Source: the human T2T-CHM13v2.0 reference genome, Homo sapiens. Taken from it: a DNA stretch of 64,000 bases. Shown one piece after another: positions 52,529-61,420 of this stretch. Under the pieces are notes generated by a model. It did no database searches, had not been told where the DNA came from, and saw only the letters and a list, made by a program, of their open reading frames with translations. The DNA lies in the NCBI RefSeq assembly GCF_009914755.1, contig NC_060929.1; one strand, given 5' to 3'. The position numbers and the translations under genes are program-made. How positions within the stretch are numbered: position 1 is the stretch's first letter; each line of letters opens with the position of its first letter.

Positions 52529-52751
52529 CGAACGTGACTGATGACTTGAACAGTGTCTATTGCGCTTCCTTTTAGGACTGCTTCTCCTGCTGCGGACTGA
52601 AGATTTACTGCAGTGGATTCGATACCCGCTTTCAATGTCTCTGTGATAATGTCTAGGAACATATCCTTCACAGTAGTCATTCCTGTATTCGTCAACGTAT
52701 CTCCGGTCCCGATAATCTCGCTCATTCAAGGACCTTGCTTCTAAATAATGA
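52529..52751 (-). CDS. CLK4: CLK4 exon 3 (223 nt), RS-rich region
   Basis: CAG|TCATTAT...TCG|GTATGA; HYLEARSLNERDYRDRRY...RSRRSSPKRKRNRH; overlaps ORF 52523-52729. Confidence 0.96.
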
Positions 52752-53795
52752 CTGCAAACACATTAAAAGATTTCAAATTATTCTCTTCATTCTGCAATAA
52801 TGTGGTTCAAACAAAACATTTTCTCAGAAATTCTTAAACAGCTAACTCAATATAAGAAAAAAATTCAAACAGATGAATTAGCATTTATATTTATCTCATA
52901 AAGCTTAAGAAATAATTTTACTTTAACAAACAAGCAAATGGGCCCATTATAGAGTTTGCTGTCAAGCACTTCACACCAAGGAATAAAGCTTGAGTCAAAT
53001 CATTAATTCATGTCTAGTGTTTACTTGATTAAGTGTTCCTTTACCTTCTGCACCTGTATCTAAGCTGTCTTAGTCTCTCACAGAGGTACAATCAGAGGCA
53101 GGCAAAAAGGATTCCTTTCTCTTGTAATGTAAGAGCATTTTAGATATCCCTGGCACAGAGAGAATTCCTTCATGAAAGGTATATTAGAGCTATAAGGAGC
53201 CTTAAATGTATTCCAGCCCTTTCATTTTACCGACGACTACATTAAGATCCCTAGAAGAAAAATGATTTACCAAGGTTGTATAACAACATTAGTGACAAAA
53301 ACTAAAATATTTTCAAACCACTATTATACAGGCCAATTTTATTACACACAGCATCTATCATGTCTCCTCTACTCTTTGCATTTCTAGCCTTGTTATTCCT
53401 GTTTGAGAAATAGAAAACATAGCTTTTGAGGACTGCCTCATGTGCCAAAGGCATCTAAAATATATCCCCCTAAAATAAGAAAGGGATCCTGTAGTTTAGC
53501 ATTACAATAGTTCCACCACCCTACTTCCCTTTGCATTTCTAATTTCCTGTCATTCCTGTTTGAGAAATACCTAAGAAACAACAGAAAACACCATCATCTA
53601 GTGCCATCGTGCTTTAATCTAGAGATCCCTTTGAAAATCTGCTGAAAGCCATGGACTCTCTTTCCTAAGAAACACATAAACAAAACTTGGCAAGGAATTT
53701 CAAAGGTCATGGGCCTCAGGATGTCAATGGATCCCAGTTAAGTGGCCTTGATCTGATGGAAAGAAAAGGACATAGATTCAATTGGCCCAGTTTCC

Positions 53796-53966
53796 CGTCC
53801 CCCTCTCTACCTGGGATGAGTGTCCTCTTCAACAGAGTGCGAAGCTTCAAGAGGGATGCACATGGAGCACTGAGGGAGAGAGGGGACACCTGCCCAGTCA
53901 GACACATCGGCTAAAATAAGCCTAACAAGCAATGGAGTGACGGATGTTGACTAGATTGCCCTCACC
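53796..53966 (-). pseudogene. 7SK snRNA pseudogene, 5' ~170 nt, in CLK4 intron 2
   Basis: Reverse complement GTGAGGGCAATCT...ACATCCGTCACTCCATTG...GGTGTCCCCTCTCTCCCTCAGTGCTCCATGTGCATCCCTCTTGAAGCTTCGCACTCTGTTGAAGAGGAC matches the 7SK 5' half. Confidence 0.9.
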
Positions 53967-56900
53967 AACCCCTTTCCTTTCCCCAGAATATGCTGTCATT
54001 CTTTTTCCCAGGGGGCTGGTTTAGGCAGAAATAGAAGCATCTTTACAACTACTACCCAATAGGGCTAGCATCAAATCCAGGCTGGGGAGATACAGAAACC
54101 CGGTTCTCTTTCCCTAGCATCAGCTTTAAGTTGTATTTATTGGAGAAACAACTCAGGATATTTGGGTAAGACTGTGGGTAGTCTAGGTTAGAGATCTGAT
54201 CAGTTGGCTTGGAACTGTCAGGGAGAGATCACCAATACAATAAGCTAGACGTGACCATACTCTTAAGGGCATCCTTCCCATAAAAGTCCAAAATCCTTCT
54301 ATTAGAAAAAACTAGCACTAACAATCTTTAGCTGGAATACTGCATGGAATTAGAGCTGCTAAGCCATAAACAACGTATAGAGTAACAAAACATGGAGTGA
54401 ACACCATGAGGACAAACTAAAAGGATGAGAGTCTCTTCAATAGATAATGGCCAATGACCAAGGCTGAGAGATTATATAAACAAAGTCTACAGAATTACAC
54501 AGGCTATGGACAGGGTAGACAGGATGAACAGACTGATTTAATTTTTTAAAATATCCACTGAATGCCCAGTGAATATTTCACTATAGCCTTTCAAATAGCC
54601 AAGACGGATGAGGGTAAGGGCATTCGTTTTTATATCCACACAGGTCCTGTGGGAGATAAAAAAAAAATTATATAAGGCAAAGTCCCTGCCAACAAATAAT
54701 GAACAATTTGAGATTACTCACATAAAAATGAAACAAAATCCAACAATGTAGGAAATTCTAAAAGGTTACAACACATGAGTGCTTAGAGTCAGAGATGGGG
54801 GAAAAAATCTGTTTAAAATGGTCAGAGAATAATTACAAAAAAGATGGAAATAGAGTTGCATCTTAAAGGGAAGCCAGGATTTGGAAAAAGTAGAATACAG
54901 AAGAAATTCCGGGGGAGAAGAATGGCATATTACCATCTTAAATTCATATGGCACTTTTAGCCACAATGGCTTAGAGATGGAATTGTCTATGCATTACTCA
55001 GGAAAAAGACAATCCCAGCAAGAGCAATTTTCACATAGGGGAATGTAGACAAATAAGTAAGCTGAGAATAGCATCATTAAAAACCCTGCGTGCTAGGCTA
55101 AAGAGTATTATTTCTCAAAGGACGGTCTATTTATCAACAGTATCAAATATGGAGTTCTTATTAAAAATGGTAACCCTGGGCCTTAGGTCATACTCACTGA
55201 CTGTAAATCTGGTCAGCATACCTCCAAGGTGATTCTTATTCACACTAAAGTTGGAGAATCACTGGTTTAAGACTTGATACTTTATGTTACAGGCTTCTGA
55301 CCACAATATATAAAGGTAGGGTTTACAGCCACATCAGTCTTTCTAATGCAGAATGGATTAACTAAGCCTGTAGAAAGGGAGACCAATTCACAGGCTACCT
55401 CCAAAAGACAAATCATAAAGAAAAGACACTATGCAATATATATATGACAAATGGTTAAAATATTGTAATAAAAAGCTCTTCTAAATCAATAAAAATACTT
55501 TAATAAATAGGCTAAGAATAAAAAGATGTTCAAATGATCAATAAATATATGACAGCGGACAAATTCGTTAGAAATTTAAAAATTCAGTTTAATCAAAACA
55601 TTATTCTTGGCCTTTCAAAACAGCCAAGATTGGTGAGAGCATGAAGGAGCACGTTGTATAATTTGGCAAACTCTCTAGAAAAAGAAATATGAACCTGTAG
55701 CAAGAAATAAGAGTTCACATGCTTTAACTTAAAAATGCTTCTTCCTGGAGTGTATTTTCAGGAAATAATCAGTGGCAAAGATTTAGAAACAAAGATTTTT
55801 TTTTTAATTATAATTTTACAGCTAAATAATGGGGACTAATTTCCTACAGAGATTACCATCTTTATACTTTTCTGCATTTTTCAGTTTTTTGTTATTTTAT
55901 AAAAACACTCAAAGTTTTTGACCTTCAAAAATTAGAATATTCTGGATCATGGTAAACGCTGACCACCAAACACATCTGGTACAAATATCAAAGCAGGCAC
56001 TGGCCTGGTGGTTAACTGGACTCAGTATCATGTTTACGTAGTTAACTATGAGCACAAATGAACTGTTCATCACTCATATCACTTCCTTTCTATATATACA
56101 ACGTATAATTATCCTATGAATAACCAGTACTATGACGTTAAGCCTTAGGGTTTTTTGTATTTATTAATAGTGGGGTACAGATGGTTTTTTTTAGTGTACT
56201 GTACATTAATTATTAATTATCTCTGGTCTCTGAAATCCTGTCATAAACCTTCCCCCTTCCCCTTATATAACAATGCGTATGAAGCATGATTTGTCTGCAC
56301 TGACTACAAATAAGCTGTTTGGCAGAACAAGTCTGTTAACGTGGAGAAGGAAAGAAATTACATACTGTTTTTTAAAGTAACCCCAGCTGGCTAATTTAGA
56401 AAGCAATCTGGTAAACAGTCCCAATGGAACATCTGCACAAAACGAGAAAACAGAACCAACAAAACAAACGAAAAAGGGAAATTAATGAAAGAGTGAAAAC
56501 TTACCTAGCCTTTCTTTAATCATTTAGAACTTTAAGATTCCTTTAATTCTATATAAATATATTACCTCCAAATTGTACACTGGTAAGAATACAATAAAAC
56601 AGCACACATGCTGTTGCAAGTTTTTATTGAGGCCATTTCCCAAATTACTAGCTACTACCTATGCAAAAGAATAGTTCTTAAATAAAGCCAGCTTCTAAAA
56701 ATCCCAAACATATCCCTTGGCCTCATCTACAAATATAACCTGTACGACATGGTATAAGTGACTAATAATACATGCTGCTTTTCTCTGTTGGAATAACTCC
56801 TCCCCTATAAAACCCTACCTTATTTCTGAAACAATGAGCACTACAACATACCCATCTCCCTCCTACATACAAGTTAAAGGTACTCATTGGGCATTCTATC

Positions 56901-57228: not shown

Positions 57229-57389
57229 CAATCAGATTCTTTAAACTGGTGATGTGGTTTACAATGCCTGTTCTCTTGTGTGCTACTATGAGATCTCCTC
57301 TTCCGCTTGTGACTTCCACGATAGCTTTCATGTCCCCAGCTTTCTCTGCTATCCCAATCAGGACAGTGAGTTCTTTTGGAATGCCGCAT
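57229..57389 (-). CDS. CLK4: CLK4 exon 2 (161 nt), start codon; MRHSKRTHCPDWDSRESWGHESY...
   Basis: Acceptor CAG|ATG at 57389, donor TTG|GTAAAT; RS-rich CLK N-terminus. Confidence 0.96.
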
Positions 57390-60379: not shown

Positions 60380-61420
60380 GCCCTCAACCACCTGGATTTG
60401 CACGGACGCCCGGTCCCCACCTCCCGGCTCCTGGGCACCCGGCCAGTGCCTTTGGCGCACTCAAGACAGGGGCAAATGCTTGACTCTGGAAAACCCCCGA
60501 AACGCTACAAACGGCCCAGGCCAGGAATCCAGGGGAAGACTTGATCTCCGACAACACGAATGCCAGAGACGGCTCTCGAAGGGTCTCCCGACAGGTCCTA
60601 GCGCCCGCCGGCTGGAAGAGGTCCCGACAGGGTTAACCAACAGCCGCGCTCGCCAGGCAGCAGGGGACCGCGAGCCCACGGCCGGCCTCCGGAGCCGCGA
60701 CGCGAGCGGCCAGGGCCCTCAGAGAAGGGTCAGCGGCAGAACCGCGACGCCCGAGCAACTTTCGGTGCTGCCGGCGTGCACCAGCCGAGCAGCGCCTCGC
60801 AGAACTCCCAACTCAGCTCCAGAAGCCCAGGCCCCTAACGCGGTCGTTTCTCCGACACCTGGCTCGGAGACCTAAAGACCGACAGCCGCCTGTCCCAGCA
60901 CACACCATCTGCAACCCTACCTCCGCAAAAGCAAATGGCCCTTCGGCCGAGAAATGTCGCCAAACTGCCGTCTTCCCTCCTCGGCCGCTGCGACAAACAC
61001 CCCACAAAATGGCGGCAGCGCCGTCGCCCTAGAATCCCCCGAGTCGCCTCTAGCACCACCTACGCCGCGCGAACGCGCCTGCGTGACAGAACCTTGCGCG
61101 CTCCCGCCGCTCCACCTAAGGGCGGGGCTCCACGTGACGTAAGAGCGGGGCCCGAGCCTCCACACTGCGGCTGCGCGGCCCAAGCATTTCCACCCCCCGC
61201 CCCCCCGCCCACCCGGTCCCGGGGCCTCTAGGCCGGGAGGGTGTTTACGTTCTCTACGGGCTCGGGTGGAACCGGGAAGGAACGCCCGTGTCCCGCCCTC
61301 AGTGTGTACCGCGTGTCTGCCCCCTCCCCCGGGACCTCAACTCCCGCAGCCGGCACCCGACAACGGCCCCAAAACCGCCCAGGGCGGGCCTTGGCTGGTC
61401 CCTGGGCTGTTCCCTGGACT
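60380..61420. promoter_or_regulatory. CLK4 CpG-island promoter
   Basis: CpG-dense; GC box GGGCGGGG 61120-61127; overlapping E-box/CRE-like CACGTGACGTAA 61131-61142; YY1 motif CAAAATGGCGGC 61005-61016. Confidence 0.85.
60921..61060 (-). other. CLK4: CLK4 exon 1 (non-coding 5'UTR); TSS approximate
   Basis: Inside the CpG island; ends at donor GCGGAG|GTAGGG (60921/60920); no ATG; YY1 motif in the sense orientation. The 5' boundary is not resolvable from sequence. Confidence 0.7.

What the first reader, a model, noticed from the sequence alone, without database searches (positions are those of the whole stretch)
56366..56579. Hidden exon / 72-nt mini-intron / exon cassette in CLK4 intron 2; both exons would be poison exons
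Seen (minus strand): acceptor GCUGUUUUAUUGUAUUCUUACCAG| at 56579 and a consensus donor UAG|GUAAGU at 56505. A 72-nt, almost purely U/C/G intron follows, ending UUUUGUGCAG| at 56432, then a donor ACA|GUAUGU at 56366. After exon 2 (which ends in TG), exon A (75 nt) reads C-V-Q-F-G-G-N-I-F-I-stop. Exon B (67 nt) starts with A, so the exon2/B junction itself creates TGA. Established: SR proteins and their kinases are often autoregulated by NMD-coupled poison exons. Inference: a second unproductive-splicing switch in CLK4 besides exon 4.
Basis: partly seen in the sequence, partly recalled or inferred. Interest (0 to 1): 0.7.

Follow-up and report, generated by a model that had tools for sequence, protein, structure and literature searches.

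The report
Conserved poison exon in CLK4 intron
The second intron of the human splicing-kinase gene CLK4 holds a 67-base optional exon, already catalogued and nearly unchanged across mammals, that puts a stop signal into the message and so likely marks it for destruction; the neighbouring 75-base exon is unconfirmed and the two are predicted not to be spliced together.

Summary
Exon B (56432-56366) is real but not hidden: its coordinates match a row in a GENCODE v28/RefSeq event table. Seven of 20 candidate proteins join exon 2 straight to B, and B's 22-residue reading is 21-22/22 identical in them. The junction forms TGA 1210 nt before the last junction, so B is likely a poison exon. Exon A has the gene's best-scoring donor but a weak acceptor, and no annotation, protein or homologue support was found. 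The 72-nt 'mini-intron' is probably not spliced: it has no A between nt 24 and 70, so B's branch point would lie 11-23 nt from A's donor, under the ~50-nt limit. A and B would then exclude each other, or A's donor damps B. Unproductive splicing in intron 2 is already annotated (59-nt and 836-nt exons; the latter falls under CLK inhibitor). One twist: B opens a 484-codon kinase frame from a second ATG, but B's length seems to vary between species, which argues against coding.

The parts
56366..56432 (-). Exon B, 67 nt cassette; junction with exon 2 forms TGA; hg38 chr5:178622393-178622459
   Evidence: table row; 7 proteins with exon 2 joined to B
56433..56504 (-). 72-nt U-rich gap: long pyrimidine tract of B's acceptor; only adenosines at nt 3, 4, 11, 19, 22, 23, 71; likely not excised as an intron
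   Evidence: distance limit from PMC7969005
56482..56494 (-). Predicted branch-point cluster for B (A at -62, -54, -51, -50)
   Evidence: inferred, not mapped
56499..56507 (-). Near-consensus donor TAG|GTAAGT (9 of 11 matches to the U1 target), abutting B's predicted branch points
56505..56579 (-). Candidate exon A, 75 nt; stops both exon-2 frames; use unconfirmed, 5' edge uncertain
   Evidence: no support
57229..57389 (-). CLK4 exon 2: start ATG at 57389, second ATG in the +1 frame at 57331; ends in TG
53811..53869 (-). Exon D, 59 nt, annotated NMD exon in the same intron, inside a sense 7SK retrocopy
53811..54646 (-). Exon C-D, 836 nt, annotated NMD exon in the same intron; responds to CLK inhibitor T3
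52529..52751 (-). CLK4 exon 3, downstream partner
   Evidence: annotation given with the finding

Best explanation
Exon B is an annotated, mammal-conserved 67-nt cassette in CLK4 intron 2 whose joining to exon 2 forms a stop codon, so its inclusion likely sends the mRNA to nonsense-mediated decay and lowers CLK4, while the strong donor 72 nt upstream likely competes with B's branch point and is predicted not to be spliced to B. Shown: the sites, the junction TGA, 11 junctions downstream of it, the annotation row, the conservation of B's reading. Inferred: B is recognised through a long U-rich tract with distant branch points and a weak donor, which makes it easy to regulate; U1 bound at 56505 would leave no room for U2 11-23 nt away, so a transcript would use A or B but not both, or the site would simply damp B. 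Inferred and untested for B: control by CLK activity. My odds by step: B is a real exon 0.95; its main outcome is decay 0.75; A is spliced in at a detectable level 0.4; A is joined to B across the 72 nt 0.1.
For:: row chr5:178622393-178622459 equals window 56366-56432 (offset fixed on exon 4); by the paper's method it is an annotated skipped exon; 7 hits among 20 candidates (two bats, mouse, hamster, lemur, rabbit, one unnamed record); all 7 join exon 2 directly to B; B reads 22/22 identical in 5 and 21/22 in 2, while the same frame of coding exon 2 is only 20-29/34 identical; stop 1210 nt before the last junction (50-nt rule as stated). The frames after B imply lengths of 68 nt in rabbit and 66 nt in the unnamed record, which breaks a coding link to exon 3 but keeps the junction stop; no A from nt 24 to 70 of the gap, whereas the gene's 86- and 87-nt introns have many As at nt 50-70; PMC7969005 gives a ~50-nt steric limit; another intron-2 NMD exon is in the cluster that falls under CLK inhibitor.
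Against: No read counts and no NMD-inhibition data for B were seen. The table labels B 'ES_NMD', not 'EI_NMD': its inclusion junctions are not exclusive to transcripts labelled NMD. Exon 2-B-exon 3 holds an open 484-codon kinase frame, annotated as a protein in bat and lemur. No row with A or B coordinates in the 33 supplementary files of the CLK-inhibitor study, which did hold exon 4 and C-D. Conservation is read from proteins chosen for likeness to B, so it is biased upward, and no other mammal's DNA was seen. The length differences rest on two protein records and could be errors in an A run. Branch points are not mapped, and non-A branching exists (recalled).
Confidence: 0.65

Rival explanations
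1. B is the functional exon and A is a chance pseudo-exon; the GTAAGT at 56504 does nothing. This differs from the best reading only in the role of A's donor.
For: No annotation, protein or homologue support for A; weak acceptor with better ones upstream; A-strength donors with an acceptor in range also occur at 2 other places in CLK4 introns, 2 in 23.8 kb of COL23A1 intron and 3 antisense; AGGTAAGT not enriched in the window.
Against: The donor outscores all 12 real donors of the gene and sits within 100 nt of B's acceptor, about a 0.3% event after the fact. The negative searches are weak for a non-coding exon.
Confidence: 0.4
2. B is a coding switch: inclusion ends the normal frame but lets ribosomes that skip the first ATG start at 57331 and make a 484-residue kinase with a new N-terminus.
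For: The frame is open through the kinase domain; bat and lemur records carry it (P0007, cluster of 132 members; P0008, 5 members); the second Met is present in all 12 proteins compared.
Against: The +1 frame of exon 2 is open trivially, because the normal frame has no Leu, Ile or Val codon, and its reading drifts (20-29/34). B's length seems to shift frame in 2 of 7 records. The first ATG has a purine at -3, and the stop in the main frame would still trigger decay. The records are gene models, not detected proteins.
Confidence: 0.12
3. A and B act mainly as decoy exons that engage the ends of the 4.5-kb intron 2 and hold it unspliced in the nucleus, with little exon inclusion.
For: The decoy model applies to introns over 1 kb in splicing-factor genes (abstract starts of PMC6097662 and PMC7373989); a strong donor that cannot be joined forward fits a decoy.
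Against: The detained CLK4 introns described are those flanking exon 4 ('intron 2' does not occur in PMC3187705); B is seen spliced on both sides in 6 of 7 protein records.
Confidence: 0.13
4. One reading: A and B are included together by removal of a 72-nt intron.
For: Strong donor and strong acceptor face each other across 72 nt; an ATG near the end of A would be in frame with B and exon 3 (456 codons).
Against: Adenosines only 11-23 nt from the donor against a ~50-nt limit; 0 of 7 B-containing proteins begin in A, though 90% clustering can hide members.
Confidence: 0.1

Closest known systems
Conserved poison exons of SR-protein genes (Srsf3, Srsf5; PMC4281565, passages)
   Same: Cassette in a splicing-regulator gene, stop codon on inclusion, high conservation.
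   Different: The host is the kinase; the stop is made by the junction itself; decay and feedback are not shown for B.
CLK1/CLK4 exon 4 switch with detained introns 3 and 4 (PMC3187705, PMC4281565; passages)
   Same: Same gene, same outcome (unproductive mRNA).
   Different: Exon 4 is unproductive when skipped and is shared with CLK1; B is unproductive when included and has no counterpart in the 235-nt CLK1 intron 2.
Annotated CLK4 intron-2 NMD exons: 59-nt D and 836-nt C-D (PMC7347940 supplement; mouse 'clk4 truncated isoform')
   Same: Same intron, stop on inclusion, conserved; B appears with D in mouse, bat, hamster and rabbit records.
   Different: D derives from a 7SK copy; B is single-copy in the genome search; inhibitor response seen only for C-D.
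Mutually exclusive exons enforced by distant branch points (OGDH 4a/4b; PMC7969005, passages)
   Same: Branch adenosines under 50 nt from the upstream donor, followed by a long U-rich tract.
   Different: Those are coding alternatives; A and B both stop the frame, differ in length modulo 3, and A's use is unproven.

Membership tests
Poison exon (AS-NMD cassette): exon B | Optional exon with GT-AG sites, spliced in real transcripts | tested here: met
   annotation-derived row; 7 protein records with the exon 2-B join; no reads seen
Poison exon (AS-NMD cassette): exon B | Stop codon more than 50 nt before the last junction | tested here: met
   1210 nt, 11 junctions downstream
Poison exon (AS-NMD cassette): exon B | High conservation | tested here: met
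   by protein proxy only: 21-22/22 against 20-29/34 for the same frame of exon 2; set chosen by likeness
Poison exon (AS-NMD cassette): exon B | Isoform stabilised when NMD is blocked | not testable with these tools
   supplements searched held no CLK4 splice rows
Poison exon (AS-NMD cassette): exon B | Inclusion controlled by the gene's own product | tested here: inconclusive
   no B row in the CLK-inhibitor tables; B may be absent from that event set
Poison exon (AS-NMD cassette): exon A | Premature stop on inclusion | tested here: met
Poison exon (AS-NMD cassette): exon A | Spliced in real transcripts, and conserved | tested here: inconclusive
   no support; all weak tests for a non-coding exon
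Sterically enforced mutually exclusive exons | Branch point under ~50 nt from the upstream donor | tested here: met
   by sequence only: all candidate As at nt 11-23; not mapped
Sterically enforced mutually exclusive exons | Both exons used, never together | not testable with these tools
   needs junction or long reads
Short spliceosomal intron (72 nt) | A branch adenosine far enough from the donor and near the acceptor | tested here: not met
   no A from nt 24 to 70

The most novel reading that the evidence does not exclude
CLK4 intron 2 is a multi-way switch: a strong donor sitting on B's branch points makes A and B mutually exclusive, A silences the gene outright, and B both ends the normal frame and licenses a 484-residue active kinase with a swapped N-terminus from a second, out-of-frame ATG in exon 2, a splice-controlled change of start codon in a splicing kinase.
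Probability: 0.1. Interest if true: 0.65.

Novelty: already known. Interest (0 to 1): 0.3.

Why it matters
CLK1/4 set SR-protein phosphorylation and are drug targets. The papers read here treat exon 4 as the switch. A conserved, CLK4-only set of stop-codon exons in intron 2 could explain separate control of CLK4 and CLK1 and offers antisense handles to raise CLK4. The class is well known and B is already annotated, so the gain is detail: how B is controlled, whether the upstream donor gates it, and whether the +1-frame kinase is ever made.

Tried and rejected
Paralogue homology: CLK1 intron 2 is 235 nt and shows no match to A, B or D (173, 63 and 26 of 200 shuffles score as well; the U-rich gap 6 of 200, taken as composition), while intron 3 matches strongly (0 of 200). 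Retrocopies holding A or B: only the locus itself. RNA structure: no fold beyond shuffles (z 1.22, -0.53, 0.52); the only Rfam hit in intron 2 is 7SK. Recursive-splicing site at AG|GTAAGT: rejected, the bases upstream are purine-rich. Conservation of A through proteins: the search of representatives gave 2 hits, one 100% identical over 41 residues and one unrelated repeat protein; exon 2 searches gave 3 and 8 proteins, none continuing into A. Stray mammalian DNA in genome and viral contigs: none. Supplements without any CLK4 splice row, hence uninformative: PMC8091538 (2 files), PMC11632617 (1 file), PMC8233366 (6 files). PMC8395096, PMC7352608, PMC3967051, PMC10886777 and bioRxiv 2025.03.21.642423 (passages) say nothing on intron 2 exons. 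One search opened an unrelated paper. The ultraconserved poison-exon screen of Thomas et al. 2020, which I recall naming a CLK4 exon, was not held, so it may already cover B or D.

Full report
Observation. The four sites, the lengths (75, 72, 67 nt) and both stops are as described. Motif strength alone proves little: with a rough matrix from recalled frequencies, B has a strong acceptor (7.3) and weak donor (-0.2), A a weak acceptor (1.0) and the best donor in the gene (6.8; annotated donors -3.5 to 6.3), and pairs of such strength occur in control sequence. AGGTAAGT is not enriched in the window (4 against 1.97).

Exon B is real and already catalogued. The NMD event table of Lim et al. 2020 (PMC7347940; supplementary file 5 rows and methods passages seen) has 8 CLK4 rows. 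Exon 4 fixes hg38 = window + 178566027, and the row 178622393-178622459 is then exactly 56366-56432. Events there come from GENCODE v28/RefSeq annotation; the label ES_NMD means that a junction skipping B is found only in NMD-labelled transcripts, so the row shows annotation of B, not decay of the B isoform. The same table lists a 59-nt exon (D, 53811-53869) and an 836-nt exon (C-D, 53811-54646) as NMD on inclusion. A (178622532-178622606) is not among the 8 rows.

Exon B is conserved. A protein search with the open frame across B gave 7 hits among 20 candidates: Phyllostomus, Desmodus, mouse (F2Z3V2), hamster, mouse lemur, rabbit and one unnamed record. All 7 run from exon 2 directly into B. 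B's 22 residues are identical in 5 and differ at one place in 2, whereas the same frame of coding exon 2 is 20-29 of 34 identical. The set is chosen by likeness and consists of gene models, so this is a proxy; no other mammal's DNA could be read. CLK1 has a 235-nt intron 2 with no counterpart, so the element is CLK4-specific.

What inclusion does. Exon 2 + B forms TGA, 1210 nt and 11 junctions before the end, the standard decay signal. But B also shifts the frame by one, so a second ATG in exon 2 (57331) opens 484 codons through the kinase domain, annotated as a protein in bat and lemur. I judge this mostly incidental: the +1 frame cannot hold a stop because the normal frame of exon 2 has no Leu, Ile or Val; its reading drifts between species; and the frames after B imply 68 nt in rabbit and 66 nt in the unnamed record against 67 in human (inferred from proteins, possibly errors in an A run). 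The junction stop survives such changes, a coding link does not.

The mini-intron. The gap has adenosines only at nt 3, 4, 11, 19, 22, 23 and 71; its 47-nt A-free run is the third longest on the minus strand of the window. A branch at A would be 11-23 nt from A's donor. PMC7969005 (passages) gives about 50 nt as the steric limit for joint U1 and U2 binding and shows OGDH exons made mutually exclusive by branch points at 25-41 nt. The gene's own 86- and 87-nt introns have many As at nt 50-70. So the gap is best read as B's long pyrimidine tract with distant branch points, and A's donor as a competitor: A or B, not both, or a U1 site that damps B. This is inference; no branch point is mapped. 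No stable fold was found.

Exon A. It would stop both frames, but nothing outside the sequence supports it: not the table, the three protein searches, the representative search, or the CLK-inhibitor supplements. These are weak tests for a non-coding exon. For it: a near-perfect donor right beside a conserved element (about 0.3% by chance, after the fact). I put use of A at 0.4.

Regulation. In Funnell et al. 2017 (PMC5431906; passages and 33 supplementary files searched, which may be cut) the 836-nt intron-2 exon is in cluster 1, whose inclusion falls with the CLK inhibitor T3; that fits feedback in intron 2, though the cluster is dominated by skipped-exon events of many genes. No row carried A or B coordinates. 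PMC4281565 and PMC3187705 (passages) deal with exon 4 and its flanking introns. PMC3967051 (passage) notes Rbfox2 binding at a Clk4 NMD event without saying which.

Novelty. Poison exons in splicing regulators are a known class, B is annotated, and a truncated mouse Clk4 protein from exon D is a named record. Verdict: B already known as an exon and probably a poison exon; A unproven; the mini-intron probably wrong; interest 0.3.

Noticed in passing
window 53811-53869 (-), within RN7SKP70 53782-53971: The annotated 59-nt NMD exon D lies wholly inside a sense 7SK retrocopy (Rfam 75 bits; about model positions 103-161); its acceptor AG stands where the 7SK consensus has AC. Its reading is 84-100% identical in mouse, bat, rabbit, hamster and horse records: likely an old exapted 7SK copy turned conserved poison exon. 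Not searched in the literature; perhaps more interesting than the finding itself.
   Followed up: partly
window 53863 (-), exon D: D carries its own ATG in frame with exon 3 (445-codon kinase ORF), so D, like B, offers an alternative start while stopping the main frame.
   Followed up: partly
window about 55720-55805 (-): Mouse, hamster and bat records have a further exon between B and D; the human counterpart is recognisable but diverged and seems to lack the GT donor.
   Followed up: partly
window 54646 (-): Strong acceptor C (9.7), used in an orangutan record (P0001) and in the annotated 836-nt exon; a horse record implies another acceptor near 53917.
   Followed up: partly
window 60921-61025 and 57229-57389 (-): Exon 1 is open in both frame 0 and +1 with no ATG, continuous with exon 2, so upstream non-AUG starts are possible.
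   Followed up: no
window 56611, 56775, 55722 (-): Three GCATG (Rbfox-like core, label recalled) in intron 2, one 30 nt before A's acceptor; no TGCATG.
   Followed up: no
window 38716 and 38727 (-): Two strong donor-like sites with acceptors in range in CLK4 intron 11, beside a masked repeat.
   Followed up: no
P0016: A library protein 100% identical to an intron-2 frame over 41 residues, with TAG read as Gln upstream and unrelated sequence after: looks like a chimeric contaminant.
   Followed up: no
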